64,000 nucleotides of DNA from a virus (IMGVR_UViG_3300014043_000277); one strand, 5' to 3'; counted from the first letter of the stretch, positions 12,812 to 37,727 are shown. Numbers and translations: made by a program. Notes: generated from the sequence alone by a model not told the origin.

Positions 12812-14107
12812 TCACATGCTTGCGGCTGTTATCAATGTAATCAGATTATACGTAACATGAACAAGCGCACCAGGCCAAATGGATTTGAATTTCACACAGG
12901 ACAACCAGCTCAGGAACGCCCCGAACATACTCATGAACACGAACAGGAATATGCTTTTCGCCACGCCATCCTGTCCTGTAACATGCCCGATACCGAACCA
13001 TAATCCTGCAAGCATGCATACAATGAGAACCTGCCACCATGAACGAGAGCCATCCTTCAAACGCATGAACCTGCTTTCAACGAGTGAACGCGCAATGAAA
13101 CCACGATAAACCATTTCCTCCAGAACCGGACTGATAGTCAATGAAAACAGCATTGTGAACAATGTGATTCCATTGAAACCAATCGCGCCGACATCCGCGC
13201 GAGGATCATTATCACCCGTCAACGCGGTTTCCGTTGACCGGCTCATACCGGTAACATCCACGCCAATCGCATACAAACCATTCACCATTGCAAGATGAAC
13301 CATCCATACAACCATTCCGCCGAACACGCCGATGATGATGATCCACAGCCAGCTCATCGCGGTGTTCTTCTGATGCATGTCCCTGTTCAAGGATTCAGGT
13401 TTCAAACTTGCATGATAGCCCCCGTTCAATTTCACGATATCCCTGACCGCAGGTGAGAACATGACAACAGCAATTCCCAGTAATGCGACTGGAATTCCCA
13501 GATAAGTATTATAGAAATGCGATGCAGGTTCATTGGCATCAGCGAATGACAACCCACTGAACAGCATGTAACCGAGCAGTAATCCATAACTTATCATGAT
13601 TGTGAAAAAACCCGTTATAATTTTCAAAAACACCGGTGTCAGGACAAACGCGAGTTTCCTATCCCTGTCATCCTTGTTCTTGTTCGAATCGGATGCCCAT
13701 CTCCGGTATTTATCAGGCAGTTCACTCTTCCATAATTGGAATCTCACATATAATGCCAGCATTGATTTATCATCAGACGGACAGGCACCCGATAACGCAT
13801 CATCAGTCTCATTGCCTTCAATGCTTCCATTATCAGCATCAGTTTGCTTATCAACATCATCAACAGGTGAAACCCCAGCATTATCATTAATACTGTCATC
13901 CGTCGCAGCATCGGATGCATCATCAGCGCCGATTGCATTCGTTGGCGTAAGGGCGTCCGCAATCCCGGCATCGGAACCAGTGACCGGTATTGCATTCATG
14001 CTCTCATTGGAATCATCATAATCGCTCATATCATGAGAATATCCATGGGTTCGTGTTGAAACCACGCCGGAACAACAGTTCAACACGCGAACCAGTGTCA
14101 TTATCAC
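12812..14107 (-). CDS. CPBP family (CAAX/Abi) intramembrane metalloprotease with a long N-terminal region
   Basis: The C-terminal domain carries EEMVYRG, FGIGH and HVTYN, the three conserved CPBP motifs. The annotated start overlaps the upstream ORF by 76 nt, so the real start is probably an internal Met. Confidence 0.6.
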   Translation of the reverse strand: MIMTLVRVLNCCSGVVSTRTHGYSHDMSDYDDSNESMNAIPVTGSDAGIADALTPTNAIGADDASDAATDDSINDNAGVSPVDDVDKQTDADNGSIEGNETDDALSGACPSDDKSMLALYVRFQLWKSELPDKYRRWASDSNKNKDDRDRKLAFVLTPVFLKIITGFFTIMISYGLLLGYMLFSGLSFADANEPASHFYNTYLGIPVALLGIAVVMFSPAVRDIVKLNGGYHASLKPESLNRDMHQKNTAMSWLWIIIIGVFGGMVVWMVHLAMVNGLYAIGVDVTGMSRSTETALTGDNDPRADVGAIGFNGITLFTMLFSLTISPVLEEMVYRGFIARSLVESRFMRLKDGSRSWWQVLIVCMLAGLWFGIGHVTGQDGVAKSIFLFVFMSMFGAFLSWLSCVKFKSIWPGALVHVTYNLITLITAASM

Positions 14108-15599
14108 GTTGCGTCATGCAACCAGATGCAATCATGAAATCAAACCATGCATCCGGCAATAAAGTCAAAATCGTTCCAACCGCTATCTTACGACCATACG
14201 CGGCGGCGACAGGACGGGACAAATCAGCTATCCGTGTTTTCTCCTCACGTGTAATCTTCCCCTGACGGACAAGCACATTCAAACCTTGTTTAATCATGCT
14301 TACAATGTCCTCAATGCATCGTTTCAACGTGGAACGGCTGATATCCAATCGTTCCGCGATGATGCACAGACTGCCATTGCTGAACCTGCCGCCTGCTTTC
14401 AAATGCTTCAACGCGTTACCGCCGCCAGCCGAAAGATAAGCCATGACTTTATCACGATTCAACGCCCTTGCTCGCTTGCTTGCCTGTGTACCACGGTTAA
14501 GATTCGCTTTCCTGCTTGCATTCTGCTCATCAGTGTTCGCATTCCCGCCCTTACGTCCGAGCGCACGCAGGGTTTCACGAGCGGAATCATGAATAATCCT
14601 GCTTGCGGTGAATGGCTTCTTACGCGCGGATGAATCCTTACGAACAGGAATGGCTTTCTTTGCTTCCTTCTTAGCGGATTTCACAATGCTTTTGATTTCT
14701 TTATCCGGTAATGCCGGAACGCAGCGCACGGCTCTTGCCGCCGCATCCGGATCATTGCCATTCCTTGCAGCCCTGATAGCGGCAGCGAACGCAGCATTAT
14801 TCCTGTTGCCCTCCATGACAACACCAGACGCGAACGCATAACCATACTTCTGCGCATTTGTATAATAATGACTACTGTCATATTCCATGACATGATTAAC
14901 AAGATTCCATGAATGCCTCGTAGCGGAACCATCATTGAAAGAACCCGTCTTATCAAGGAAATCAGCGATTTCACGCAATGAATATTCAGGAACATCCTCA
15001 TTGAGCTTATAACCACCGCCATCAATTGTCTCCACAACGCAATCAGATGGCATCATGACACGAATATTGCTCTTATTGCAATAAAAAGGATTCCTGTATC
15101 TTAATCTCCTGAAATTGGAATCCGCATGCAGGATTGAACGCATGCTTTCATAGCACCTGTCAAGAAGGAACATCTGCGCGGCGCAGACACCGAACTGATT
15201 AACCGGGAACGGGGAATAACGCCAGAAAGCCTGCGCATGCCCGTTCTTATCATTCACAATATAGAATGACGGCAACGGAATCAAACCATCATTAACCGCA
15301 AACGCAAGGATGGTTTCAGAATTCTTATCATCCATGTCAATCACAAGCAAACCATTATTCCAACTGGAACCATCGCATTCCATGTACATGAACGATGGAA
15401 TGTCAGTCGGAGAGATTCTGTCCACGGTGAGTGAAAATCCCTTCTTACCTTTACTGACGCCAGTCATGGCATTGATATGATCAAATAGAACATGATTATC
15501 GGACGGTAATCCCGCTGAAATGACAGGCACATACATCGCATCAGCGTAATCATAATCGCAACTCATGGTTAAATTAATCCTTTCTGTCCCCATGAACAT
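14031..15599 (-). CDS. Replication-initiator-like protein: AEP primase-polymerase (Replicase-family) N-domain, basic linker and C-terminal HTH
   Basis: LLVIDMDD fits the hhhDhD motif I of the AEP fold. NGHAQAFW fits an sxH-like motif II. The basic K/R-rich linker is followed by an HTH (GSLCIIAERLDISRSTLKRCIEDIV). An AT-rich region and tandem repeats lie immediately upstream. Confidence 0.4.
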   Translation of the reverse strand: MFMGTERINLTMSCDYDYADAMYVPVISAGLPSDNHVLFDHINAMTGVSKGKKGFSLTVDRISPTDIPSFMYMECDGSSWNNGLLVIDMDDKNSETILAFAVNDGLIPLPSFYIVNDKNGHAQAFWRYSPFPVNQFGVCAAQMFLLDRCYESMRSILHADSNFRRLRYRNPFYCNKSNIRVMMPSDCVVETIDGGGYKLNEDVPEYSLREIADFLDKTGSFNDGSATRHSWNLVNHVMEYDSSHYYTNAQKYGYAFASGVVMEGNRNNAAFAAAIRAARNGNDPDAAARAVRCVPALPDKEIKSIVKSAKKEAKKAIPVRKDSSARKKPFTASRIIHDSARETLRALGRKGGNANTDEQNASRKANLNRGTQASKRARALNRDKVMAYLSAGGGNALKHLKAGGRFSNGSLCIIAERLDISRSTLKRCIEDIVSMIKQGLNVLVRQGKITREEKTRIADLSRPVAAAYGRKIAVGTILTLLPDAWFDFMIASGCMTQRDNDTGSRVELLFRRGFNTNPWIFS

Positions 15600-15927
15600 T
15601 CCACTGGACTCATGTTATCCATGAGAACAGGCAACCGGACGGCACGGAATGCTAAAATATTATGAAAACCGATGAAACACGAGTGATTGATTATTAACCA
15701 AAATTGATAAAATGCAGGCATGTCAACAAAACAGGAATTATGCTGATATTCACAATACTTTCACAATTATGAGCAGTTTAAACATGAATGCAAATGGTAA
15801 TAACATTGATTACATATGAAAACCACTTAGACAAAAATAGAATGATGAATAGAGCGGTTTTTGCTTTGCGACATATGCATGAGAGAATGAACATTGGTTA
15901 AAATAAAAATATAGCCATCATGATTTC

Positions 15928-16262
15928 AAAAAATAATGGTGCCGCCGTCAGTGGTAGCTCATGAACAATGCTTGGTTTTCAAAAAATAATGGTGCCGCCG
16001 TCAGTGGTAGCTCATGAACAATGCTTGGTTTTCAAAAAATGAATCGCCGCCGTCACCGGTCGCTCATGTCAACACTGCTCCCATCCCTGCGGGACACGAG
16101 AACAGGCGCACTCCACGCAGGAGCACAGTGCCACGAGGGCAAGACCGCATGTGAGCACGGTGAGGAAGAGACGATGCGATACAGCTGCGGACGGCAGGCG
16201 TGCTGGTTACTAAAACTCACAGGGGTACTCCCTGCTTGCTTTCAGGTGAACCAGGTCAAAAT
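15928..16262. repeat. Left arm of an imperfect inverted repeat of about 330 bp, partner at 20990-21262
   Basis: The outer iteron block and the inner block aaactcacaggggtactccctgcttgctttcaggtgaaccaggtcaaaata reappear as reverse complement at 20998-21048 and 21203-21262. The GC-rich core of about 140 bp is diverged between the two arms. Confidence 0.7.
15933..16075. repeat. Tandem direct repeat of about 54 bp, iteron-like; two full copies and one degenerate copy
   Basis: ttcaaaaaataatggtgccgccgtcagtggtagctcatgaacaatgcttggttt occurs twice in tandem (15933-15986, 15987-16040). A diverged third copy (gaatcgccgccgtcaccggtcgctcatg) follows. Confidence 0.7.
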
Positions 16263-17219
16263 AAGTCTTCAATAGACACGATTATCAGTATATTAATAGT
16301 TGATATAATGTATGAAATATGTGAATACATTACACTTGGCCGCTTTCAGGTGAACCGCACTTCGGACAAAATCCTGAAAACAATGTTTGCAGGAACGCGA
16401 TAATGTGATATTGTTGATGACAACAGGAACGGAACAAGTATCATCCGATTCCGACATAACAGAAAACAAACCATCCAGTTTACACATGATTAAGTTCATG
16501 TCCACACGGAAAGGAAAACACAGCATGACAGCTGCATGCACATTGACAACAAAGAACAACATTGATGACATTGACATCACGGAAAACCTGATTCTGAAAT
16601 CGGATTCATACAAGTATTCCCACTGGTTGCAGTATCCCACGGGATTGACTTATATGTTCGATTATCTTGAATCACGCGGAACAAACCATAACATTGATAA
16701 GCATGTCATGGATGAAACCCGCTTTTTCGGATTACAATACTATGTTAAAAAGTATCTTTCTCGACCAATCACAATGGGAATGATTAATCAGGCAGAGGAA
16801 ATCATCGCCGGGCAGGGATTGCCTTTCAGCAGGGAAGGATGGGAATTGATTCTGAACGAACACAATGGTTTCATTCCAATCCGCATCCGCGCCGCCAAGG
16901 AAGGCGCATTGATCCCGGCGCATAATGTGTTGATGACCATTGAATCCACTGATGACAGGATTCCATGGATTGTCGGATGGGCGGAAACACTGCTCATGAA
17001 AGTATGGTATCCGACTACTGTTGCGACATTATCATATTCAATTCATGAACTCATTAAGAAATATTTGGATTTTACCAGATTGTTGTGGGAATGCCCCTGC
17101 TTTTTAAGTATGAGGGTTAAAAAGCATAACCTGCTTGCAATTAATAGCATAATTAATATAATCAACCAGCATGATTGATAATGTGATATCATTGAGAACA
17201 ACACCGGGAAGGAGGAAAC

Positions 17220-18590
17220 GTGATGACACCAGAGGAACGCGAGCTGAAGAACAAGCACATTAGCGAGAGCATTAAAGCTACTCGTGAGAAGCGCAAGAAT
17301 CAGCGTGCGATGGTGTTCATCATGAAAATCAACAAGGGTAAACTCACTCATCAGCAGCGGAAACTGCTTAACCGCGTGTTCCTTGAGGCGAAATGGCTCA
17401 GGAATGATATCATTAGCAGTCAGGATGTACTCAAGTATAACCCAGCAATCAGGAAGGTTAAGGTAATCATCCCGGAACCCGCGAAGCAGCGTGACCCGAA
17501 ACTACATGATAGGACTGAGCACCTGATTGCACTCGGTAGTCAAGTCAAACAGGGCGTTCTCAAGCAAGTGAAGGATGACATACGCGGTTTGCATGCTGTT
17601 AGGGTGAAGGGCGGTAAGGTTGGCTCACTGAAATTCACCAGTGAGGTGAACTCAATTAACCTACCGCAGTATGGTATCACGTGGCGGGTTAAGGGAAACT
17701 CTAATAAGATTAAAATACAGGGAATCCCCGGTTACTTGTATGTTAAGAACCTGCAACATGAACTCTTTAACACGCAGTATGATTATAATCTCGCGAACGC
17801 GAAATTATTGCGTCGTTCGGATGGTTATTATATTGCCATAACGGCTTACCTGAGTAATGATGATTATAAGAATAGGAGAATTAATCATGATAGGAAGGTA
17901 ATGAGGAAGGAACCAGCATCGGATACTTACATTGGTATTGATGCTGGTTTGCAGCATCAGTTCATTATGAGCACGAATGGTGAGCCTGTTTACAAGGACG
18001 CATACCGGAGTGAATCGAAGCGGTCTAAACGCGCGAGAGCGCACCAGAAAATGAAGAAGCACGGCTCGAAACGGTATGATAAGTGTAAGCGGGTTATTCG
18101 GCAGGATGGTGAACGCAGGCAAGCATGGAAGAGAATAACAGCGCATCAGTTCGTCCTATGGTTATTAAGCATGTTTGAAACTATTTGTATTCAGGATGAG
18201 CATTTTCAATCATGGTTCAGAGTGAATGGTTGTAAGATGAGCGATGGTATCCTCGGTCGGGTTTACGCTGAATTACGTGGGCTTGCTGGTGAGTCATCGC
18301 CGCGTGTGCTCATGTGTGATGAGTGGCAACCCACGACACAGTATTGCCCGTTCTGCGGGCATTGTACTAAGCATAAACTATCAGAGCGCGTGTTCCATTG
18401 CGCGTATTGCGGTTTTGAAATGGATCGGGATACTCATGCGGCATTGAACATGATTATCCTCGCGCTGGAACCATTGCCTGCTTACTGGTGGCGATTATCT
18501 GAGTTTAAACCACTGGACTCAGTTAAAAGGATTAATAGTGGTTTAACCGTGCGTGAGAGCGCGGTTATTAATCACGCTGGTCTGCATTAA
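17220..18590 (+). CDS. tnpB: TnpB (OrfB), the IS200/IS605-family RNA-guided endonuclease
   Basis: 456 aa. The C-terminal zinc finger CPFCGHCTKHKLSERVFHCAYCGFEMDRDTHAALNM sits next to a RuvC-III region, and the basic HTH-like N-terminus is typical of TnpB. A strong AGGAGG lies 7 nt upstream of GTG-ATG. Confidence 0.8.
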   Translation: MMTPEERELKNKHISESIKATREKRKNQRAMVFIMKINKGKLTHQQRKLLNRVFLEAKWLRNDIISSQDVLKYNPAIRKVKVIIPEPAKQRDPKLHDRTEHLIALGSQVKQGVLKQVKDDIRGLHAVRVKGGKVGSLKFTSEVNSINLPQYGITWRVKGNSNKIKIQGIPGYLYVKNLQHELFNTQYDYNLANAKLLRRSDGYYIAITAYLSNDDYKNRRINHDRKVMRKEPASDTYIGIDAGLQHQFIMSTNGEPVYKDAYRSESKRSKRARAHQKMKKHGSKRYDKCKRVIRQDGERRQAWKRITAHQFVLWLLSMFETICIQDEHFQSWFRVNGCKMSDGILGRVYAELRGLAGESSPRVLMCDEWQPTTQYCPFCGHCTKHKLSERVFHCAYCGFEMDRDTHAALNMIILALEPLPAYWWRLSEFKPLDSVKRINSGLTVRESAVINHAGLH

Positions 18591-18760
18591 ATTGCAGGGA
18601 ATGTGAGCCGATTGGTTACACTGTTTGATACTCTCGTGTCTGATGGTGATTACTGTCCAATCGCGTTTCCCGGCCAGTGAACCCACAGTGTTAACACTTG
18701 TTAATTCTGAGCATTATGCTGAAGCCCCGTGCTTCAGCGCTGGGGTATCTCACAGCGGAT
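18591..18760 (+). ncRNA. Candidate TnpB omega-RNA (right-end element RNA) scaffold
   Basis: Placed by analogy: omega RNAs derive from the 3' end of tnpB and the right end of the element. This region holds stable hairpins including gctgaagc-cccgt-gcttcagc. The extent is not determined. Confidence 0.3.
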
Positions 18761-19448
18761 GATCGAGGTAAGCTACCGTTCATGTTGCAGGATTTCGGTT
18801 ATCGTGGCGTATCCAGTGATGAATCAGCCGGTATTGGCGGAATGGCTCATTTGACTAATTTCAAGGGAACGGATACCGTCGCCGCCGCCGCTTACGCGCG
18901 TAAATACTATCATGCGGACATTGCCGGTGTCAGCATTCCCGCATCCGAGCATTCCACCATAACATCCTGGGGTGCCGGGCGTGAGAGATGGACAGGAAGC
19001 ATTTGAAAACATGATTAACCGGTTCGGGGATTATGCGAATTATGCTTGCGTGTCCGATTCATGGAATTATGATCGCGCATTGCGCACATGGATTTCATTG
19101 AAACCATTGATTGAACGGCATGATGGCATTCTTGTCGTGCGTCCTGATTCCGGTGATAATGTCAGGAATGTGCTTGTAGCATTACACGCATATTGGATGA
19201 GGGATTCGGAAGCACTGTGAACAGCAAGGGCTACAAGGTTCTGAATCATGTCGCCGTCATTCAAGGTGATGGTTGTGATTATGATAGCATTGAACGCATT
19301 CTGCAAGCGACAATGGATGCTGGTTATTCCGTGCAGAATCTTGCATTCGGAATGGGTGGCGCGCTGTTGCAGGGTGGTGATCATTCATCCGTGAACCGCG
19401 ACACACATAAATCTTTCAAGGACGTCATCTAAGAGACAACATCAAGCC

Positions 19449-19488
19449 AAGAAAAAGACCGAGTGATTCATCACTCGGTCTTTTTCTT
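19449..19488. terminator. Bidirectional intrinsic terminator after the nadV remnant
   Basis: aagaaaaagaccgagtga-ttca-tcactcggtctttttctt forms a perfect 18-bp stem flanked by an A-run and a T-run. Confidence 0.7.
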
Positions 19489-19516
19489 ATCCTCAGACAT
19501 ATTACGATGTCGATAC

Positions 19517-19846
19517 CTAAGTATCAACCATACCACTATCGTAACACTTACACCAATAACAAACGGAATACCTGTGATTAAAAACCAAGCATAGTAAACA
19601 AACACCAAGCCACCAGTAAAACTCAACGCAGTTTGTTGCCCAAAAAAAACTCGTATAAAGACTATCTGTTACGGCTAAAAATCCCGTGATAAGAAAGGGA
19701 ATCATTAAATAAATTCCTAATATTACAAAACTTATATTGCGCCGTACCTTTATATTTTTCATATCAGCAACAATATCGCTAAGCGACATCGGCTCTTCGG
19801 TCAACGTAAACTGCATACCAGCGACTCGCAAAACAGGAGAACGCAC
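19517..19846 (-). CDS. Possible small hydrophobic protein
   Basis: Contains FVILGIYLMIPFLITGFLAV and WWLGVCLLCLV. It sits in a rearranged region and partly overlaps a duplicated gene fragment, so it may be spurious. Confidence 0.2.
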   Translation of the reverse strand: MRSPVLRVAGMQFTLTEEPMSLSDIVADMKNIKVRRNISFVILGIYLMIPFLITGFLAVTDSLYTSFFWATNCVEFYWWLGVCLLCLVFNHRYSVCYWCKCYDSGMVDT

Positions 19847-20083
19847 ACATTACATTGGCTGTAAGCGGCACATCAAATGATGAACGGTGACAATAAAGCC
19901 ATCTGCTTGCATACATCGCAGGCGTGTATGATGGCAGTGTCCTATGCGATTATGATTTCAAAGACATTCAACTGAGCGCATGATAACATTTGATGAATTG
20001 AAATAAAATGAGCGGAACGCAATCACTATTTGCATTCCGCTCATTCGCTTCGGTCAGTCCGCCCTCCCCGATATCAATAATTA

Positions 20084-20902
20084 TCACATTGAAACAGGAA
20101 TGGAAATAATGCCATCCTTGCCTATGCTGAAATATGGTTTCATTCTGTTGATTGTTTTCTTGAATGGTTTCACGTATGCGTCGTGGACATCACGAATGTG
20201 ATTCTGAAAAGCCGTCAGCTCCTTTTCATTATTACGGATTTTCAAATCATGTTCGCTTGTTTCCATTTTAGTGGTTTCCTTGCTGTATTCAACAGGCCAT
20301 CCATCCGCGAGCATGACGGAACCTTTCGCGAGCGCGTTCACTCCGACAAGTCCTATCCTGCCATCAGTGTTCCGATATGCTGATTCTCCTATTTTCATGT
20401 TATTGAATGAGAAATCAGCCTCATCGCTCATGAGCGCAGCCGCAATGTCAAATGACGCGGAGAACGCACACATTACATTGGCTGTAAGCGGCACATCAAA
20501 TGATGAACGGTGACAATAAAGCCATCTGCTTGCATACATCGCAGGCGTGTATGATGCCCGTCCGAGGGAATATGCGATTATCACGTCATCCTCAGTGAAC
20601 ATGCCATCATATGAATCCAGATCCATGAATTTTTCCAATTCCTGCATTTGAATCATGGCACGGAACGCGCCTTCCATTATGTAGTCCTTTTCACTGTTAT
20701 ATAAGGAATTATAAGCATCCTTGCTGATATTTGCGGTTTTAAATGCGGCATTCACGGCGAGTTCAGCCGCCATCCTCATTGATCCGGCTTCCATGCTGTC
20801 AACTTTCTTGCTTAATTCCAATGCCTTCTCATGTACTGTTGTCATGAATTCAATGATATCATACCGAATCAACCATGTCAACATGAAATCAGCATTATTC
20901 AT
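20084..20902 (-). CDS. Hypothetical protein, 272 aa
   Basis: Long ORF with a hairpin at 20010-20043 downstream. An internal 102-bp segment is duplicated at 19836-19937. Confidence 0.4.
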   Translation of the reverse strand: MNNADFMLTWLIRYDIIEFMTTVHEKALELSKKVDSMEAGSMRMAAELAVNAAFKTANISKDAYNSLYNSEKDYIMEGAFRAMIQMQELEKFMDLDSYDGMFTEDDVIIAYSLGRASYTPAMYASRWLYCHRSSFDVPLTANVMCAFSASFDIAAALMSDEADFSFNNMKIGESAYRNTDGRIGLVGVNALAKGSVMLADGWPVEYSKETTKMETSEHDLKIRNNEKELTAFQNHIRDVHDAYVKPFKKTINRMKPYFSIGKDGIISIPVSM

Positions 20903-20989
20903 GTCATGTCCAATTTAATTCTAATTAATACAGCGTAATTCATTCACGCTTTTAGACATGCTGATACTGTTTCGCCAACCGTTTGAAAA

Positions 20990-21262
20990 CGTATTTTAAC
21001 CTGGTTCACCTGAAAGCAAGCAGGGAGTACCCCTGTGAGTTTCAGCAACCGTTAGATTAAGCGCACGGCATCTGATACTGCAATCCTATGCGCCTGCGCT
21101 GGCGCGTTGCCTGTCTGTCCATGCCGTGTGCGCGTGTACAGTGTTTGCGGTATTGCGTGCATGAACGGCCATGAGAGCAGCAAGGGGTGACGGTGGCGAT
21201 TATTTTTTTTGAAAACCAAGCATTGTTCATGAGCGACCAGTGACGGCGGCAATATTATTTTA
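20990..21262. repeat. Right arm of the imperfect inverted repeat, partner at 15928-16262
   Basis: The reverse complement of 21203-21262 matches the iteron unit at about 90% identity. The reverse complement of 20998-21048 matches 16209-16262 almost exactly. Confidence 0.7.
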
Positions 21263-21400
21263 TCGCATTTATTTTCTGTTGGCGATGTGCGTATTATAAT
21301 AGAAGTCCTGTGTGAGCCGTTTCAATGCGTCTCTGACAGGGTTTCGGTTCAATCATGATGATTCATATGCGTTCATGCTCTCAGGCCGTCAGAATGCCGT

Positions 21401-22897
21401 TTATTTGCTTTTATGCCATCCAATACGGTTCAACGCCTGTTCATTGTTCTTCGTTAGCCATTGTTCCGGTGATGCGGGTGATTGTATTCCGCAGGATTTA
21501 CACATCAGCATACGTGTTCCATCAACTGTTTTGATTTTATAACTGGTTAATGGTTTACGGCATTGGATGCATTTTCCTGATTGCAGAATTGCGAGGCGTT
21601 CAGCCGTATTCGCTTGTTCAGGTTCCATTCCGCGTTCATGAATATGCAGTATGATTGTATACAATGCGTTCAAATCAATGCTGCTGTCCAATGCGGTTAT
21701 TTTATCATTGAAAGTGCATTTGTTCATCAGCGCCTTGATTATTGTTCCGTTCTTCGCGCGATGCTTGCGTTTTTCAGCGATTATCATGTTAATCTGATTC
21801 AATGCGTTATCAAGCCATTTGATTGCAATGGCGTTCTGTTGTTGCTGTTTCGCGCTTGCTTTATCCGGATTCACCAATATTTTCTTTATTGCGGATTCTT
21901 TAAGATTGTTTCCTTTCCTGTAATCATTGATTCGTCCGATTGCATTCCGAATGACATCATGGGTGACGCGTTCAATTGGAATTGATTGCAGGTTATGGAT
22001 TTCATTCATGGCGAAACGGCTGCAATCCGGCGTCATTGGTTTATAACCGGCGTAATCCATGAATGCATGGATGTTATCATGTATCCTTGCGGCGCGGGTC
22101 GGTTCGAATCGTCTGTTGAGCCATTCGCCTAGTTCAAGATGATCCTTGTCGGCATTGCATGCATGACAGCATATGATGACATTGCCGAATATGGTTTCTC
22201 CGATTCCGAGTTCTACTGGATTTGCAATTGGAATGATATGATCGCCTGTTCTGCGTCTATCGCCACTGTCAGTCATTTTATGGCCGCAATAAGCGCATCT
22301 TCCATTGAACCATAGGACGGTTCTGATGAATTGCTCATATGTGAAACCGTTGTTCAACGCCGTCATTATGCATCTTGCGATTCCACTACGGATTGATGCT
22401 TTGTTCATGCTTAATGGCTTCCCTGCTGCGATGATAGTGAAAATGTCATCAACATGCATTTCGCCGTTGAATTCAATGTAATCCTTGTATTGCGGGATTG
22501 TCCGGATGTTCCGTTTGCACCAGTCTGTTCCTTTTGGATTGTTTTTCATGATGAATGCAGCCAATGCGTTCACTGTGACGCCATATTGCAGCCATTCGCG
22601 TTTATCATGCCGTTTCATTGGGTCCGTGCCATCAGCATTGTTCACGGCGGTGATTTTTGTCTCAGGCATGTCGATATGGTTGCTTAGCGCGCCGAGCATG
22701 AGGTTCAACGCGCTTTTATCGCCTTCCAGCGTTTTCGGCATGTTCTGCGTGATGGCTAATGCGATTGCGGTGTCATCATGCGGGTCGATTCCTGCCTTAT
22801 CGCATAGTTCAAGCCATTCTGTTTGATCATATGTCATTCCGAGGCATAATTGCATGAGGCCGGGGATTATTTCACGAGCGGATTGTTTGTCAGTCAT
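21401..22897 (-). CDS. HNH endonuclease-domain protein, 498 aa, actinobacterial DUF222/13E12-like architecture
   Basis: The HNH core is FNGRCAYCGHKMTDSGDRRRTGDHIIPIANPVELGIGETIFGNVIICCHACNADKDH. It is a paralogue of 26464..27903. Confidence 0.6.
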   Translation of the reverse strand: MTDKQSAREIIPGLMQLCLGMTYDQTEWLELCDKAGIDPHDDTAIALAITQNMPKTLEGDKSALNLMLGALSNHIDMPETKITAVNNADGTDPMKRHDKREWLQYGVTVNALAAFIMKNNPKGTDWCKRNIRTIPQYKDYIEFNGEMHVDDIFTIIAAGKPLSMNKASIRSGIARCIMTALNNGFTYEQFIRTVLWFNGRCAYCGHKMTDSGDRRRTGDHIIPIANPVELGIGETIFGNVIICCHACNADKDHLELGEWLNRRFEPTRAARIHDNIHAFMDYAGYKPMTPDCSRFAMNEIHNLQSIPIERVTHDVIRNAIGRINDYRKGNNLKESAIKKILVNPDKASAKQQQQNAIAIKWLDNALNQINMIIAEKRKHRAKNGTIIKALMNKCTFNDKITALDSSIDLNALYTIILHIHERGMEPEQANTAERLAILQSGKCIQCRKPLTSYKIKTVDGTRMLMCKSCGIQSPASPEQWLTKNNEQALNRIGWHKSK

Positions 22898-23823: not shown

Positions 23824-24120
23824 TCATTCATTATGATTATCATCAATGAGCGATAGAACAAGATTCGCGAGTGCGTCCGGTAGCGAGTATGGGTCAATTC
23901 CCGGTTCCATGACTATTGGTATGAGCGCGGTGATGACTGCTGTCCGTGTAATCATGTCATCGGTGATTCCGGCTTCCTTGCAGCGTTGTTTCCAATCCTG
24001 TCGGCATGCTTCCAATTGCCTGTTCATGTCCGTATCCGCATGGATTGCCATTAATGCTGGCATGAGTGCTTTCCGGATGTCATTGACCCATTCGTTCATA
24101 TCATTCATATCATTGTTCAT
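23824..24120 (-). CDS. Hypothetical small acidic protein
   Basis: 98-aa ORF whose start overlaps the stop of the upstream GT-C gene. Confidence 0.35.
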   Translation of the reverse strand: MNNDMNDMNEWVNDIRKALMPALMAIHADTDMNRQLEACRQDWKQRCKEAGITDDMITRTAVITALIPIVMEPGIDPYSLPDALANLVLSLIDDNHNE

Positions 24121-25724
24121 GCGTCAATAATATCCTTCCATTCTGCAGGTTCGCGTTTCTTTCTGACGGCATTGCATGCATCCGTTAACACTTCCAATCC
24201 TATTCCGGCATATGGGATGAGCAATAGGAAATACGTGTAAGCATACTCAGGTTGCGTTTCCCAGAATACATGGAATATGAATCCGCCGAGGATGCATAAT
24301 GCGGGTAACGCGGCCATGATATCATGTTTTCGTTTCGCAATCGGCAATCCGATTAACGCCATTATGCTGATGATTATGCATGCGGCATCAGCGATTGTCC
24401 GCGTTGAAACCATGAATGCACTTGATGTAACTATTTTCTCACCTGCCGTGAGTTTCATTTTACCTTGCAGCTCTTTATTGTTGGCAACATTCAGGAATAT
24501 TGAATTACCGACGCGAACCTGATATGAGAATGTCGGTTCCGCCCATGTTTGAGCGATTTTAACAGAGAAGAAATTAATCGCGTATAACGGGTTTGTTGTA
24601 AGTTTGCTGATTTGACGGGATAGGGTTTCATTCGCGTTCCGATTAATGGTTTTAGCATCAGTCCATGCGTAACCGGCCTTCTGATAATAGAATCCTTTAC
24701 CATGATCACTGCCGTCATTCAATCCCATCGCAATGAAATTCCTCATTGGCTGTGCTTCTGATTGTTCAAATTTAATGCCTGAAATCATTTCCATGCTGTT
24801 CACGGCGATAGTCTTACCTGTCATCATGCATGGTATTATGAGAATCCCTGCGATTATCAGAATTATTGTCTTTTTCAATTGAACATGATGAATACATGCA
24901 TACAGGATGAAACTGATGGTTAATGCTATGCCGATTATCATGTTGTTCGGTTTGATGAAACCGGCTATGATTGCAAGAATGAGAATGCTCAGGATTCTCA
25001 TTATGAATGGTTTGAATGTCTTGTTATCATTAATGCTGATTGCAAGCAGTATCATTCCTGTGATGAGAGGCAGGGACATGATGTTTCCATAAACCTGAAT
25101 CATGCTTAACGGCAAGGGAATGAACATCATGAGAATCAATGCTGTCCATTTCGCGGTTTTCTCACCGTTCAACCGTTTCGCTATGAAAATCAGATTAAGC
25201 ATGGTGATTATCATGAGGATCATGTTCGCATATGACATCATGAGATACACGCCATTCAGGTTCATGTTCTGGAACAGCATGATGAATGGAAGCATTATGA
25301 TGAGGACACCTGATTGATATGGATAACGCTGCAGGTAAATATAATTCTTATCATGATAATCATTTCTGATGATGTCAAAACCGATTTTCATCATGTTTTC
25401 ACCGTCTCCCCTATCACGGAAACCGGATAATGTCAACCATGTGAATGCAATGATTACAGTGAATGCAATGCTTATCATGATAACGTGTTTCAGTTTCATC
25501 CTGCTAATGAACCCGGTCATTCGGTTCAATGCATACATGATTGCAATCGCAATGATGATTCCTATTATTGCCGCTGTCATATCAAAATATGGATTTCTGA
25601 CAGTGAATGAACCCGTGTAGCACATTGTCAGGAACACGTTCAGGAATGCGATGATTATAAGGATGATGAATGACAGCGCATATGAGAATCCGAACAGCAC
25701 TTTCCCTATTTTCTCAACATTCAT
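24117..25724 (-). CDS. GT-C-fold-like polytopic membrane glycosyltransferase, paralogue 1
   Basis: 535 aa with more than 10 predicted transmembrane segments. It shares the RYPYQSGV motif and the C-terminal WETQPEYAYTYFLLLIPYAG with 28066..29691 and 29716..31308. Confidence 0.5.
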   Translation of the reverse strand: MNVEKIGKVLFGFSYALSFIILIIIAFLNVFLTMCYTGSFTVRNPYFDMTAAIIGIIIAIAIMYALNRMTGFISRMKLKHVIMISIAFTVIIAFTWLTLSGFRDRGDGENMMKIGFDIIRNDYHDKNYIYLQRYPYQSGVLIIMLPFIMLFQNMNLNGVYLMMSYANMILMIITMLNLIFIAKRLNGEKTAKWTALILMMFIPLPLSMIQVYGNIMSLPLITGMILLAISINDNKTFKPFIMRILSILILAIIAGFIKPNNMIIGIALTISFILYACIHHVQLKKTIILIIAGILIIPCMMTGKTIAVNSMEMISGIKFEQSEAQPMRNFIAMGLNDGSDHGKGFYYQKAGYAWTDAKTINRNANETLSRQISKLTTNPLYAINFFSVKIAQTWAEPTFSYQVRVGNSIFLNVANNKELQGKMKLTAGEKIVTSSAFMVSTRTIADAACIIISIMALIGLPIAKRKHDIMAALPALCILGGFIFHVFWETQPEYAYTYFLLLIPYAGIGLEVLTDACNAVRKKREPAEWKDIIDA

Positions 25725-26434
25725 TTCATTTTCCTTCTCCGTGTTTTGAATGCAAGCATTTCCTTGATGGCGTCAATGCCTTTCGCACCCATGTTCCGAA
25801 TGTTCACGCTGTTCACGCCTGTATCACGTGGTTTGAATGATGTTTCAATGAATTCAATGTGCTCATGATTGCCGATGAACGCGGCGGTGAGCAGAATGTT
25901 CGTGAAATCAGGTTCCGGCTGCATCATATGCATGGCATTCTTGAACGCATCATATTTCATGAGCCGGAATGGCGTGTTTGAATCAACAACATGATGATGG
26001 AACAGGATTGCGAATACTAATCTAAGCACTCTTGTGCTGAACATTCTGAACAATCCATCCTGACGGTGTTTCCTGTATCCCATGATGACATTATTGTCAT
26101 TGCGTGCGTCCCATAGTTTTTTGAAATCAGCCGGGTCAGTCTGACCATCGGAATCAGTTTGGAAAATCCAATCAGGCTTCATGTTCAATGCCTGCATGTA
26201 ACCATGATATAATGCCTTGCCATGACCGCTGTTCGGTTGGGACATGAGAATTATATGAGGATCATGCATTCCGGTGATTTTCACGGATGTCTCATCACGA
26301 CTTCCATCATCAACGATGATTATCCTGTAATCATCGGTTCCAATCGCATCATTGAATTCATGCATCCATGATTCCAACACGTTCCGTATTGCTTTTTCCT
26401 CATTATAAGCAGGCATCACCATTATCAGTTTCAC
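25721..26434 (-). CDS. GT2-family glycosyltransferase (polyprenyl-phosphate sugar synthase, Ppm1/DPM1/GtrB-like)
   Basis: MPAYNEE...IIIVDDGSRDET..., the canonical GT2 N-terminal DxD region. 237 aa with no C-terminal transmembrane segments. Confidence 0.65.
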   Translation of the reverse strand: MKLIMVMPAYNEEKAIRNVLESWMHEFNDAIGTDDYRIIIVDDGSRDETSVKITGMHDPHIILMSQPNSGHGKALYHGYMQALNMKPDWIFQTDSDGQTDPADFKKLWDARNDNNVIMGYRKHRQDGLFRMFSTRVLRLVFAILFHHHVVDSNTPFRLMKYDAFKNAMHMMQPEPDFTNILLTAAFIGNHEHIEFIETSFKPRDTGVNSVNIRNMGAKGIDAIKEMLAFKTRRRKMK

Positions 26435-26463
26435 GTAATGAGAATATCATGAAACTAATATTA

Positions 26464-27903
26464 TCATGCTTGTTGGATGCGCATGGTTTCAATGGCGAGT
26501 TCCTTTCTGATGTCATCAGCTGGAACTCCATCATGTTTCATTTTCTCCAATCGTTTCACGGCGACATTAACGGCTTTCGCTTTCATTGTATCCATGCGTT
26601 CATACATGGCGAAATCACGGAATGATTGGATGCCGAGCATCGCCGCGCGCCGTTGTTCATCAGTCAGCATTCTTGTTTTATGAATCCATGATTTCAATGG
26701 TTGGTTCGCCTTGTCATTATTGCATTTATGACAGCATAATGCCATGTTGCCGAATTTCGTTTCACCGGGCGGATTGCCATCCAATGGATCAAGATGCTCG
26801 CCTGTCGCGGCGTTCGCCGCCTGTCTACCGCTTCCTGAATTCTTAATCAATGGTTTGCTGCAATAACAGCATCGCCCACCGAAAAACATGACACTGGCGA
26901 TATACTTTTTCTTATTCATGTCATTCGCGGTATTGCTTAGCAAACAGCGCCGAACGTTTTTCTCGCTTCCATATCCAAACCTGCGTGTCATCGCACCGAC
27001 ATTATTGGAAATCAATGCCGCCATGTCCTCCATGCGGACATCCTTACCGCAATACGCCCGGAAACGCACGGCGTTATCATCATCGGATTTCAAATACGAC
27101 AGTATTTTATTTTCAATTTTCCCCTGATTCCGTTCATTCTGGATGCTGTTCATCATTCTGTCAGTCATTGCTTGCAAATGTTTCCAATCATCATCCGTTA
27201 TCGTGGAATTCACACTGGCGACAGCCCCATTGAAATGTCTGCGTTCAATCGGTTCTCCTTGTTTCCATGCTGGTTGCAATGGTTTGCCGAAACGGGATTT
27301 ATCCTGTAATTGTTTCCTTTTGATTGGTTTACGAATCATTCCTTCCTTACCGCAATCCACAGTGAACGGTTTCACTGGTTTGAAATCGAGTTTCGCGGTG
27401 TCAACGGGTTTGCCGTTCCGAGATGTGCTTAAAGTGATATGCATGGTTTCGGCACCATGATAGTATTTGCGTTTGTTTTCAGGAATTCGAACAAGTACAC
27501 CCTCATTCACGCCATCATTGGCATAACCGATGATTTGAATGTTTCGCATTGGTTTACCATGACCGAATTCCGGTTCGGGTTCCTGATTGAAACCGAATGT
27601 TATATGAGGTTTTCTGATTTCGTTTTCCAATGGTTCACGGCTTATATGCTGGTTTATTTCCTCAAAAAACTTATCCCTGTTGAAAAACACGCCATAATAC
27701 ACTGTCCTGTATTCAGTTTTGTTTCTATTATGCATTCCAATGCCGTCATTGCGCTCATTGAAATTCTCATAAGCCTGTTCAATGGTATCAGCTTTAATGT
27801 CCGTGCCTTGATGACAGGGAATTGGACATGGATCGGATGCGCATTTAGCCAGTTTCCCTGTATGCGTTCCGTCTTTACTAATGATTTCATGCCAGCATGT
27901 CAT
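26464..27903 (-). CDS. HNH endonuclease-domain protein, 479 aa, paralogue of 21401..22897
   Basis: HNH core FFGGRCCYCSKPL...GEHLDPLDGNPPGETKFGNMALCCHKCNNDKAN. It carries an N-terminal Cys/His motif CASDPCPIPCH. Confidence 0.6.
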   Translation of the reverse strand: MTCWHEIISKDGTHTGKLAKCASDPCPIPCHQGTDIKADTIEQAYENFNERNDGIGMHNRNKTEYRTVYYGVFFNRDKFFEEINQHISREPLENEIRKPHITFGFNQEPEPEFGHGKPMRNIQIIGYANDGVNEGVLVRIPENKRKYYHGAETMHITLSTSRNGKPVDTAKLDFKPVKPFTVDCGKEGMIRKPIKRKQLQDKSRFGKPLQPAWKQGEPIERRHFNGAVASVNSTITDDDWKHLQAMTDRMMNSIQNERNQGKIENKILSYLKSDDDNAVRFRAYCGKDVRMEDMAALISNNVGAMTRRFGYGSEKNVRRCLLSNTANDMNKKKYIASVMFFGGRCCYCSKPLIKNSGSGRQAANAATGEHLDPLDGNPPGETKFGNMALCCHKCNNDKANQPLKSWIHKTRMLTDEQRRAAMLGIQSFRDFAMYERMDTMKAKAVNVAVKRLEKMKHDGVPADDIRKELAIETMRIQQA

Positions 27904-28065
27904 ATTACGAATCTATCATATGTTTCCAATGTAATGGCTATGGTATTATTGAAATCATGATGCCTGCATATGGAATGCATAAAATGGATATTTTAATGTG
28001 AGAATCCAACAATGATGATTACCAGTGATAATCCTGAACTGATTTTTAACAATATTCATTCTGTT

Positions 28066-29691: not shown

Positions 29692-29715
29692 GTTTTCCTT
29701 ATCTTTTGACTTAAT

Positions 29716-37220: not shown

Positions 37221-37267
37221 AGAAAACGATGCGTGACAAACTTGGCAAAAATCACGCATCGTTTTCT
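37221..37267. terminator. Strong hairpin with a 15-bp stem
   Basis: agaaaacgatgcgtga-caaacttggcaaaaa-tcacgcatcgttttct. Confidence 0.6.
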
Positions 37268-37727
37268 CGTGGAGCTGACGGGAATTGCACCCGTGTCTTG
37301 TTCAATCGGTTCATTCCGGATTCACAATCATCCCCGGTTTCCTATTATGTCTTGCATCCGATAGACCGAACCGGGTTTGTCCGTATCGGATGCATGATGC
37401 ATTCAATGTCTCCTGTCATCGGCATGCATCATGCGTTTGACATCGCCGTTTCATATGCGACGTGGAACCGATTATTGAAACGATAATATTCATCGGTTCC
37501 ACGGATTACGCGGCAAGCGCGAAATCAGCCGAGTTAACCTTGGCGTTCATTGTTCGCATGCATCCATTCAAATCGGCGGTTAGCATGCTTCAACCGGATT
37601 GCCGGTATCTGAACTATCAATTGCCAATCGATACTATTCAGCCCCGTGATGCGAACATGATAACACTGATTATCAGTCAGAATGTCATCATGCTTGCATC
37701 GTGCTCATTATCAATAATATCACATTA

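What the first reader, a model, noticed from the sequence alone, without database searches (positions are those of the whole stretch)
15928..21262. A 5.3-kb segment bounded by roughly 330-bp imperfect inverted repeats encloses a dead nadV, an IS-borne tnpB and a duplicated gene fragment
The left arm (15928-16262) and right arm (20990-21262) are inverted copies. The outer part of each is a tandem repeat of about 54 bp. The inner 55 bp are almost identical (aaactcacaggggtactccctgcttgctttcaggtgaacc). The GC-rich cores of about 140 bp have diverged but keep local similarity. Both cores keep a short Arg/His-rich ORF in the equivalent frame, at 16021..16275 (+) and 21052..21252 (-). Inside the segment lie a NAMPT gene interrupted by the IS and then frameshifted, a bidirectional terminator, a possible small membrane ORF, a 102-bp exact duplicate of an internal piece of 20084..20902, and that gene itself. 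This is either an invertible or recombining cassette, a decayed composite element, or a pair of inverted ncRNA or small-peptide genes whose homology promotes rearrangement. A replication-initiator-like gene and iterons are adjacent, so the repeats may instead relate to replication or partition.
Basis: seen in the sequence. Interest (0 to 1): 0.65.

Follow-up and report, generated by a model that had tools for sequence, protein, structure and literature searches.

The report
Inverted origin-region repeats flanking decaying cassette
The two inverted arms are real. They are copies of a non-coding backbone module found next to the replication gene in an undescribed family of giant plasmid-like elements, and they enclose a small accessory cassette that is decaying here and lies flipped in a distant relative.

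Summary
The inverted arms exist at 15924-16272 (+) and 20983-21261 (-). Each has 53-bp repeat unit(s), a GC-rich spacer of about 136 nt, and a 68-bp block that is 93% identical between the arms. The spacers are not significantly similar (p about 0.1). The Arg/His ORFs are not equivalent.

The arms are not transposon ends. The block core CCCTGYTTGCTYYCAKGTG is the only intergenic DNA shared by five lineages of an undescribed family of giant elements. These have 39-65% GC, contigs up to about 225 kb for block-carrying lineages, and conserved Rep-Rce1-RecG synteny. The rep-proximal copy always points away from rep.

Between the arms lie two convergent genes, nadV and orf272. In this window nadV is dead: it carries a 1676-bp TnpB insertion sequence placed 3' of TTAC, two frameshifts, and a 3' end replaced by 515 bp. 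Close relatives have it intact.

In relative L005 (Rep 40% identical) the cassette is inverted relative to syntenic flanks. Six assemblies of the window's own lineage show only one orientation, and no recombinase is encoded in the 39 window proteins scanned.

There is no RNA signal from Rfam, folding z-scores or covariation. My best reading is that these are origin or replication-control cis sites for the primase-type Rep, whose inverted homology occasionally flips the cassette. The function is inferred, not shown.

The parts
14031..15599 (-). rep gene: Replicase (PF03090) plus PriCT_1 initiator. The start codon is probably at 15566, giving 511 aa as called in L002.
   Evidence: Pfam E 2e-9 and 3.5e-5. 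Gene call in L002. Only 4 clusters of relatives among 5.8 billion proteins.
15924..16068 (+). Left arm, outer part: 2.8 tandem copies of a 53-bp unit. The third copy is degenerate. Close relatives L003 and L004 have one copy fewer.
16069..16204 (+). Left arm, GC-rich core: 136 nt, 63% GC, 11% T. It is not alignable to the right core.
16205..16272 (+). Left arm, conserved block. The family-conserved core CCCTGCTTGCTTTCAGGTGA lies at 16230-16249 and points away from rep, towards nadV.
16335..16358 (+). Partial third copy of the block's 3' half (GCTTTCAGGTGAACC), inside the AT-rich stretch upstream of nadV.
16525..17076 (+). nadV (NAMPT) pseudogene, 5' part, up to the insertion-sequence insertion point.
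   Evidence: NAMPT_N E 1.4e-23. tblastn with the intact L005 nadV.
17077..18752 (+). 1676-bp TnpB-only IS200/IS605-type insertion sequence (tnpB 17220-18590). It is inserted 3' of TTAC, ends in TCAC and has no target duplication.
   Evidence: Empty site in L003, L004, L015 and L016. TnpB families.
18753..19412 (+). nadV pseudogene, middle part, with two frameshifts (about 18985 and about 19190).
   Evidence: Three frames in tblastn.
19413..19927 (.). 515-bp replacement of the last 206 bp of nadV present in relatives. It contains a perfect hairpin terminator (19449-19488), a frameshifted small membrane ORF (19471-19846, minus strand), and a 103-bp copy (19836-19938) of an internal piece of orf272. 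The first 423 bp have no source in the sequences held.
19928..19983 (+). Remnant of the nadV 3' end (..DYDFKDIQLSA, then stop).
20006..20046 (.). 17-bp-stem hairpin between the convergent nadV and orf272. It is the native terminator-like site of the cassette.
20084..20902 (-). orf272, of unknown function. It is the conserved partner of nadV (28% identical to the L005 289-aa protein, E 3e-27). The source of the duplicate is at 20459-20561.
20983..21050 (-). Right arm, conserved block, pointing towards orf272 and convergent with the left block 4710 bp away.
21051..21187 (-). Right arm, GC-rich core (137 nt, 58% GC).
21188..21261 (-). Right arm, outer part: one full and one degenerate 53-bp unit.
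21401..22897 (-). HNH-domain protein. It is the syntenic flank gene on the far side of the right arm.

Best explanation
The segment is not a mobile element. It is a two-gene accessory cassette (nadV and orf272, convergent) lying between two convergently oriented copies of a non-coding backbone module of a giant plasmid-like replicon.

Each module has 53-bp iteron-like unit(s), a GC-rich and T-poor spacer of about 136 nt that is free to vary, and a block of 45-68 bp. The asymmetric core of the block, CCCTGYTTGCTYYCAKGTG, is conserved across lineages whose Rep proteins are only about 40% identical.

I infer that the modules are cis-acting sites of the replication or replication-control region. 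On this reading they are read in a strand- and orientation-specific way by a replicon-encoded protein, most likely the primase-type Rep. [quoted passage not shown]

As a by-product, the inverted homology (57-68 bp at 93%) allows occasional homologous recombination that flips the enclosed cassette. This has happened between lineages.

In this window the cassette is decaying through an insertion sequence in nadV, frameshifts, and replacement of the nadV 3' end with a local duplication.

Shown: the architecture, the conservation, the orientation rule, the inversion between lineages, and the decay. Inferred: binding by Rep and a role in replication.
For: - Arms and block are real and non-random.
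- The block is found in five lineages with 39-65% GC: window, L005, L021, L022 and L019. It is the only cross-lineage similarity in the intergenic DNA.
- The rep-proximal copy points away from rep in 5 of 5 lineages.
- L005 and L021 have a convergent pair of blocks separated only by an AT-rich spacer of 195-310 bp. This is the same geometry as the window, without the cassette.
- In L019 the block is directly followed by four DnaA boxes within 110 bp, where 16 hits were found in the locus against 7.3 expected.
- AT-rich tracts flank the left module.
- The copy number of the 53-bp unit varies between close relatives.
- Rep carries Replicase PF03090 plus PriCT_1. ColE2 Rep and RSF1010 RepB' are AEP primases that recognise specific origin sites (PMC4538821).
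- The cassette is inverted relative to fully syntenic flanks in L005.
- nadV is intact and lacks the insertion sequence in L003, L004, L015 and L016.
Against: - There is no direct evidence of replication function.
- Extra copies lie 4-5 kb from rep (winR, L005 module A). In L019 the block is 5.7 kb from rep.
- There is no DnaA-box cluster near the blocks in the window, L005, L021 or L022.
- There is no hairpin of the kind seen in ssi sites.
- The GC-skew change across the locus is explained by local gene orientation.
- The block lies upstream of nadV in both lineages, so a regulatory role is equally compatible there.
- The Rep structure model was too poor to confirm an AEP fold.
Confidence: 0.45

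Rival explanations
1. The modules are shared promoter/operator or leader regions. The block would be the binding site of an element-encoded transcription factor (or the promoter for a dedicated sigma factor or RNA polymerase) that co-regulates the flanking genes: nadV, orf272, and divergently the rep operon.
For: - A block lies 254-278 bp upstream of nadV in both the window and L005, and 80 bp upstream of orf272 in the window.
- In L019 and L022 the block sits at the head of the rep-containing run of genes, in divergent orientation.
- The sequence shows linear conservation without RNA structure.
- A TTGCTY-N15-(T/C/G)AAAAT arrangement can be read in most copies (read).
Against: - In L005 and L021, blocks B and C face each other across a poorly conserved spacer with no gene.
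- The block occurs only near rep in 64 kb, so it is not a general promoter.
- Conservation extends well beyond promoter hexamers.
- nadV has its own promoter-like site downstream of the block.
Confidence: 0.2
2. The block is a site-specific recombination site. The cassette would then be an invertible or exchangeable module, like a shufflon or a dif module, moved by a recombinase encoded elsewhere or by the host.
For: - The cassette is bounded by blocks in both lineages: an inverted pair in the window and a direct pair (A and B) in L005. It has opposite orientation relative to the flanks.
- Block copies within one element are near-identical.
- Several assemblies break inside the block (L006, L016, L021, L022).
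- Acinetobacter dif modules show that short asymmetric sites can shuffle and invert plasmid modules (PMC13141974).
Against: - No integrase or resolvase was found among the 39 proteins of the window that were scanned.
- Six assemblies of the window lineage have one orientation.
- The block has no dyad symmetry or 11-6-11 layout.
- Contig breaks are expected at any repeat.
- Blocks are also present where no cassette exists.
Confidence: 0.12
3. Each arm is a gene for a small non-coding RNA of about 200 nt, for example a copy-number or antisense regulator of rep. The promoter would lie in the 53-bp unit, and the block would form the 3' end.
For: - There is a GC-rich island in an AT-rich genome with strong strand asymmetry: T is 11-19% in six cores, at or below the 2nd percentile.
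- TGAACA-17-AATAAT promoter-like sites lie in the 53-bp units, and a terminator-like hairpin lies in the block.
- A conserved hairpin plus T-tract is present in module C of L005 and L021.
- The left module is antisense to any long rep leader.
Against: - There is no Rfam hit, even at E up to 5.
- Folding z-scores range from -0.2 to -2.0 on both strands for all five modules.
- The consensus fold of seven blocks is -0.04 kcal/mol with no covarying pair.
- The cores are unalignable and carry a 47-nt indel between moderately related lineages.
- The block hairpin is broken by a G-to-T change in L003 and L004 and is absent in L005.
- The strand asymmetry is reversed in L019.
Confidence: 0.1
4. The segment is a decayed composite transposon whose arms are remnants of insertion-sequence ends.
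For: The flanking repeats are inverted, and an insertion sequence and pseudogenes lie inside.
Against: - The arms encode nothing transposase-like and have no terminal inverted repeats.
- There is no target-site duplication.
- The arms are conserved next to rep in lineages with 40% Rep identity, including a pair with no cassette.
- The only insertion sequence is a recent, separately bounded insertion that is absent from close relatives.
Confidence: 0.02

Closest known systems
ColE2-type plasmid origin, recognised by the plasmid's own Rep primase (AEP superfamily, Pfam Replicase PF03090)
   Same: The initiator gene hits the same Pfam family. There is a short asymmetric conserved cis sequence close to rep with a fixed orientation. 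It has no dyad symmetry and no need for many iterons.
   Different: - There are two or three copies per element here, against one in ColE2.
- The copies are embedded in 280-350-bp modules with 53-bp repeats and a GC-rich spacer.
- The replicon is over 200 kb rather than about 7 kb.
- Rep has no detectable similarity to any plasmid in PLSDB.
- Binding and priming are untested, and the block was not compared with the ColE2 ori sequence.
[quoted passage not shown]
   Same: Both combine direct repeats, GC-rich and AT-rich tracts, and two copies of a specific site for a plasmid-encoded primase-type protein. The opposite-strand placement of ssiA and ssiB is from my own knowledge. The paper read (PMC4538821) states only that there are two RepB' recognition sites.
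   Different: ssi sites act as ssDNA hairpins, and no conserved hairpin exists in the block. There are no RepA-helicase or RepC homologues next to rep here. In the window the two sites are 4.7 kb apart.
Inversion of plasmid or phage segments by homologous recombination between inverted repeats
   Same: Short inverted homology bounds a segment that is found in both orientations among related replicons.
   Different: The repeats here are not insertion sequences or rRNA-type repeats. They are conserved functional cis modules. Both orientations are seen only between distant lineages.
Acinetobacter pdif (XerC/D) modules
   Same: Accessory genes next to the rep/iteron backbone are bounded by short asymmetric sites, and the modules are found inverted or relocated between related plasmids (PMC13141974).
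   Different: The block has no XerC-spacer-XerD layout. There is no evidence of frequent shuffling, and only one cassette is seen.
IS200/IS605-family TnpB-only elements (for the insertion inside nadV)
   Same: The element carries TnpB with a Cas12f-like TNB domain. It is inserted 3' of TTAC without target duplication, and precise empty sites exist in relatives.
   Different: There is no TnpA in the element. The TnpB scores fall below the NCBIfam cut-offs, so it is a divergent member.

Membership tests
Composite transposon | The arms are insertion-sequence copies with a transposase or terminal inverted repeats. | tested here: not met
   The arms hold only short unconserved ORFs. The only IS-type protein found among the proteins scanned around the segment is TnpB, which lies inside the separately bounded insertion sequence.
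Composite transposon | A target-site duplication flanks the whole unit. | tested here: not met
   The flanks 15900-15923 and 21262-21285 share no direct repeat.
Composite transposon | The unit is present or absent as a whole in relatives, or occurs at other loci. | tested here: not met
   The arms are backbone features next to rep in L005, L021, L022 and L019. A convergent pair without a cassette is present in L005 and L021.
Site-specific invertible DNA segment (Hin/Gin, Fim, shufflon) | Inverted copies of a recombination site lie at both boundaries. | tested here: inconclusive
   Inverted 68-bp blocks are present. The block lacks dyad symmetry or a recognisable core.
Site-specific invertible DNA segment (Hin/Gin, Fim, shufflon) | A dedicated recombinase is encoded nearby. 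| tested here: not met
   No integrase or resolvase hit was found among the 39 window proteins scanned.
Site-specific invertible DNA segment (Hin/Gin, Fim, shufflon) | Both orientations coexist in populations of one strain or lineage. | tested here: not met
   The window/L002, L001, L003, L004, L015 and L016 all show the same orientation. The opposite orientation is seen only in L005, whose Rep is 40% identical.
Iteron-type plasmid origin (oriV) | It lies adjacent to the rep gene. | tested here: met
   The left arm starts about 330-360 bp upstream of the rep start. The same holds in L005, L021 and L022.
Iteron-type plasmid origin (oriV) | It has an array of direct repeats (iterons). | tested here: inconclusive
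   There are 2.8 copies of a 53-bp unit, or 1.8 in close relatives. The unit is long for an iteron and is not shared by other lineages.
Iteron-type plasmid origin (oriV) | It has an AT-rich unwinding region. | tested here: met
   GC is 27-32% at 15650-15920 and 23-27% at 16250-16340.
Iteron-type plasmid origin (oriV) | It has DnaA boxes. | tested here: not met
   There is no cluster near the arms in the window, L005, L021 or L022. A cluster is present only in L019.
Iteron-type plasmid origin (oriV) | Rep binds the repeats, and the region supports replication. | not testable with these tools
   This needs EMSA and mini-replicon assays.
Primase-type (AEP) Rep with a specific origin site (ColE2 ori, RSF1010 ssi) | The initiator belongs to the AEP/Replicase family. 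| tested here: inconclusive
   Pfam Replicase E 2e-9 and PriCT_1 E 3.5e-5, both above their cut-offs. There is no PDB sequence hit. The AlphaFold model has pLDDT 41 and is unusable.
Primase-type (AEP) Rep with a specific origin site (ColE2 ori, RSF1010 ssi) | A short asymmetric conserved recognition sequence lies near rep. | tested here: met
   A 19-20-nt core is invariant apart from 3-4 positions across five lineages, with fixed orientation relative to rep.
Primase-type (AEP) Rep with a specific origin site (ColE2 ori, RSF1010 ssi) | The site forms an ssDNA hairpin (ssi type). | tested here: not met
   DNA folds of seven blocks share no hairpin, with z-scores from +0.9 to -1.4.
Primase-type (AEP) Rep with a specific origin site (ColE2 ori, RSF1010 ssi) | Site-specific primer synthesis occurs. 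| not testable with these tools
   This needs an in-vitro priming assay.
Structured ncRNA / sRNA gene | It matches a known family, or folds significantly better than shuffled sequence. | tested here: not met
   Rfam gives nothing. Folding z-scores are -0.18 to -1.96.
Structured ncRNA / sRNA gene | It has a conserved structure with covariation. | tested here: not met
   The consensus fold is -0.04 kcal/mol with 0 compensatory pairs. The cores are unalignable, with large indels.
Small-peptide genes | An ORF is conserved in frame and length between copies and relatives. | tested here: not met
   The ORFs end at different points. Relatives have frame-shifting indels, and the block substitutions are all non-synonymous.
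pdif (XerC/D) module | It has a 28-bp XerC arm - 6-bp spacer - XerD arm site. | tested here: not met
   The alignment of eight blocks shows one continuous asymmetric conserved run with no two-arm layout.
IS200/IS605 family (the insertion in nadV) | It carries TnpB and is inserted 3' of a TTAC-type tetranucleotide without target duplication. | tested here: met
   TnpB families. The empty site reads GGATTTTAC|AGCGG in L004, against TTAC|CAGATTG...TCTCAC|AGCGG in the window.

The most novel reading that the evidence does not exclude
The block may be the recognition site of a new origin architecture for an undescribed family of 200-500-kb extrachromosomal elements. On this reading, paired convergent, strand-specific initiator/primase sites flank the unwinding region. 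The same sites would double as docking points where accessory cassettes (here nadV-orf272) are captured, relocated and flipped. That would be a replication-origin-linked cassette exchange system.
Probability: 0.12. Interest if true: 0.7.

Novelty: new variant of a known kind. Interest (0 to 1): 0.4.

Why it matters
The IR-bounded segment itself is an ordinary, decaying accessory region. It does, however, expose a 19-20-nt cis element that is conserved across elements ranging from 39% to 65% GC. These belong to a family of giant plasmid-like replicons absent from PLSDB, INPHARED, IMG/VR and GTDB genomes.

If the block is the Rep recognition site, it gives a concrete handle for three things. It would help find origins. 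It would help build mini-replicons for elements whose hosts are unknown. And it would help explain how accessory genes are rearranged next to the origin.

Tried and rejected
- **Known collections.** Megablast of 11 kb against phages and plasmids found nothing. Exact-pattern scans for the 35-40-mer and for the degenerate block in viral contigs and genome contigs found nothing. Rep and RecG alignments against viral contigs found no relatives. tblastn of Rep against plasmids and phages found nothing, and the RecG hits in 'phages' are ordinary bacterial RecG at about 31% identity.
- **Structure models.** The orf272 model (single sequence, pLDDT 36.7) and the Rep model (4-sequence alignment, pLDDT 41) were too poor for fold search.
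- **53-bp unit as a degenerate copy of the block.** The local alignment gives p=0.21, so I rejected this.
- **Sigma-54 promoter reading of the block.** The GG-to-GC spacing is 12 nt in the window and 11 nt in L005, against the required 10. I rejected this by inspection.
- **MOBP-type nick site (YATCCTG|Y).** This is only a one-mismatch resemblance recalled from memory, and no relaxase is present. I did not pursue it.
- **HNH protein as IscB/Cas9-like with the arm as its guide RNA.** Only the HNH domain matches, at 19-20 bits against cut-offs of 175-375. The arm lies downstream of the gene, not upstream.
- **DnaA boxes near the arms.** There is no cluster except in L019.
- **CsrA-type GGA motif enrichment in the cores.** The count equals the expectation from composition (hand count).
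- **Literature search for the element family.** Nothing relevant turned up.

Full report
**1. The observation**

The arms are real. The repeat finder reports two inverted pairs. One is 16205-16272 with 20983-21050 (68 nt, 93%, 4710 nt apart). The other is 15983-16039 with 21205-21261 (57 nt, 93%). TRF finds 2.8 copies of a 53-bp unit at 15924-16068.

The formal alignment shows the architecture of each arm: 53-bp unit(s), then a GC-rich core of about 136 nt, then a 68-bp block. The left arm has two full units and one degenerate unit. The right arm has one full and one degenerate unit. The block motifs occur only at the arms in 64 kb, with 0 expected by chance. A partial third copy lies at 16335-16358.

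The cores are 136 and 137 nt, with 63% and 58% GC. They are not significantly similar: local p=0.12, global p=0.08, and no BLAST hit.

The left ORF runs through the block, and the right ORF stops before it. Close relatives carry 1-nt indels in the A-run at 16033-16038. The three variable positions of the block core would all be non-synonymous in that frame.

**2. What lies inside**

Pfam identifies the following:

| Coordinates | Strand | Feature |
|---|---|---|
| 14031-15599 | - | Rep (Replicase PF03090 plus PriCT_1) |
| 16387-17178 | + | NAMPT N-terminal domain |
| 17220-18590 | + | TnpB |
| 21401-22897 | - | HNH protein |

orf272 (20084-20902, minus strand) has no family.

Five further contigs of the same element are 94-99% identical to the window (L001, L003, L004, L015, L016), and L002 is the window's own source. 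They were obtained through exact-protein and pattern look-ups.

L003, L004, L015 and L016 lack the insertion sequence. Three of these also encode an intact nadV; the L016 contig ends inside the gene. The empty site reads GGATTTTAC|AGCGG. The window reads TTAC|CAGATTG...TCTCAC|AGCGG. The insertion sequence is therefore 17077-18752 (1676 bp), inserted 3' of TTAC with no target duplication. This is the IS200/IS605 signature.

nadV in the window also has two frameshifts (three frames in tblastn). Its last 206 bp are replaced by 515 bp at 19413-19927. This piece holds a perfect 19-bp hairpin, a frameshifted small membrane ORF, and a 103-bp copy of an internal part of orf272. The other 423 bp have no source in the sequences held.

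Without these lesions, the distance between the blocks would be about 2.7 kb. It would hold just nadV and orf272, convergent on a hairpin at 20006-20046.

**3. The arms are backbone features of a family of giant elements**

Rep has only four relatives among 5.8 billion clusters. One of them (40% identity) lies on a 225-kb contig, L005. A tblastn of all L005 proteins against the window shows complete synteny of the flanks: CHIM-like, 126-aa, HNH, Rep, Rce1-like, RecG-like and seven more proteins. All are on the opposite strand, as expected from the locus orientation.

L005 has three modules, each a GC-rich core followed by the block CCCTGTTTGCTCTCATGTGAC:
- A(+) is upstream of nadV.
- B(+) and C(-) face each other across a 195-bp AT-rich spacer next to rep.

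The RecG-like helicase has a series of relatives at 42-66% identity on contigs of up to 517 kb. Look-ups of five of these found the block again in three lineages:

| Locus | GC | Block positions |
|---|---|---|
| L021 | 39% | B(+) at the contig start; C(-) 400 bp upstream of rep |
| L022 | 65% | At the contig end, 960 bp upstream of rep |
| L019 | 51% | In a 0.9-kb intergenic region, 5.7 kb upstream of rep |

A cross-lineage BLAST of all these intergenic regions finds the block as the only shared DNA. There is one exception, a hairpin region shared by L005 and L021. An nhmmer profile of the block finds no other copies in the sequences held.

In all five lineages, the copy nearest rep points away from rep. 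In L019 the block is immediately followed by four DnaA boxes within 110 bp, then a hairpin and two 101-bp direct repeats. No such cluster exists near the blocks in the other lineages.

Several contigs end inside the block, as expected of a repeat (L006, L016, L021, L022). In a lineage without a recognisable block (L023/L025), the 517-kb contig starts at a different 100-bp direct repeat upstream of rep.

**4. Inversion**

In L005, nadV and the orf272 homologue (28% identity, E 3e-27) map to the same strands as in the window. Every flank gene maps to the opposite strand. nadV is HNH-proximal in L005 and rep-proximal in the window. The cassette is therefore inverted between the two lineages, with blocks at its boundaries.

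Within the window's own lineage, all six assemblies agree on one orientation. None of the 39 window proteins scanned is an integrase or resolvase.

I therefore read the inversion as a rare event. The most economical mechanism is homologous recombination between the 57-68-bp inverted homologies, rather than a programmed switch.

**5. RNA or peptide?**

- Rfam finds nothing in the arms, even at E up to 5.
- Minimum-free-energy z-scores for all five modules range from -0.18 to -1.96.
- RNAalifold on seven blocks gives -0.04 kcal/mol and no compensatory pair.
- ssDNA folds share no hairpin.
- The small hairpin inside the window's block is broken by a G-to-T change in L003 and L004 and is absent in L005.
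- Between the moderately related L005 and L021, only the block plus about 30 nt, and one hairpin with a T-tract, are conserved. The core carries a 47-nt indel.

One feature favours a strand-specific role. Six cores of the low-GC lineages are strongly T-depleted on the block strand (11-19% T, at or below the 2nd percentile). This is reversed in L019 and absent in L022.

**6. Mechanism**

The block is a linear, asymmetric sequence conserved far beyond its surroundings. It is tied in position and orientation to rep. It occurs in one to three copies, twice as a convergent pair around an AT-rich spacer and once beside a DnaA-box cluster. Rep belongs to the Replicase/PriCT class.

ColE2 Rep binds a specific origin and makes the primer there. 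RSF1010 RepB' recognises two sites, ssiA and ssiB (PMC4538821). By analogy, I take the modules to be origin or replication-control sites read by Rep. In the window lineage, the accessory cassette lies between the two convergent sites.

This step is inferred, and I put it at about 0.45. The rivals are:

| Rival | Probability |
|---|---|
| Shared operator/promoter | 0.2 |
| Recombination site for cassette exchange, compare dif modules (PMC13141974) | 0.12 |
| sRNA genes | 0.1 |
| Composite transposon | 0.02 |

**7. Novelty**

The replicon family, its Rep and the block have no counterpart in PLSDB, INPHARED, IMG/VR or the GTDB genomes.

The finding as stated is an ordinary kind of structure: an IR-bounded segment with dead genes next to an origin-like region. 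The conserved block is the new and potentially useful part.

Noticed in passing
whole window; loci L005, L017, L019, L021-L025: The window belongs to an apparently undescribed family of giant elements. Contigs reach 200-517 kb, GC ranges from 39% to 65%, and Rep-Rce1-RecG synteny is conserved. Most proteins have no Pfam hit. No relatives were found in PLSDB, INPHARED, IMG/VR or GTDB genomes.
   Followed up: partly
window 37267-37645 (-): A tmRNA-like gene scores 47.4 bits in Rfam against a gathering score of 47. It has a convincing acceptor stem and T-arm. ARAGORN reports nothing.
   Followed up: partly
L019 1428-2000: An oriC-like region lies 5.7 kb upstream of rep. It holds four DnaA boxes (three perfect TTATCCACA) within 110 bp directly after the block, then a 24-bp-arm hairpin (1781-1838) and two 101-bp direct repeats (94% identical).
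   Followed up: partly
L004 1-99 (equivalent to window about 21499, at the 3' end of the HNH gene): A second, 88%-identical copy of the TnpB insertion sequence's left end sits at a different site in a closely related element. The contig ends in it. This suggests the insertion-sequence family is active in this population.
   Followed up: partly
L001 1-2852 versus window 17997: Contig L001 follows the window through the left arm, nadV and the first 780 bp of tnpB. It then continues into unrelated genes (Bax1-I and others). This is either another insertion-sequence copy elsewhere or an assembly chimera.
   Followed up: no
window 51282-51884, plus the nadV locus and the ADP-ribosylglycohydrolase hit: Several NAD-related functions are scattered on the element: an isochorismatase/nicotinamidase-like protein, an ADP-ribosylglycohydrolase and nadV. 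Loss of nadV may therefore matter for an element-encoded NAD salvage or ADP-ribosylation theme.
   Followed up: no
window 24117-31308: Three paralogous genes of about 530-540 aa (24117-25724, 28066-29691, 29716-31308) share 80-84% DNA-identical stretches. They are annotated CHIM_prot (PF27792) in the precomputed tables, and a glycosyltransferase gene lies among them.
   Followed up: no
L025 4410-5180: In the lineage without a recognisable block, two direct repeats of about 100 bp lie 615 bp apart upstream of rep. They contain CCACCCCTGTTTTGAAACC, which faintly resembles the block. The 517-kb contig L023 begins exactly at the second repeat.
   Followed up: partly
window 16069-16204 and the cores of L005 and L021: The GC-rich cores are strongly T-depleted on the block strand (11-19% T against about 30% background). 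This strand asymmetry is unexplained, and it is reversed in L019.
   Followed up: partly
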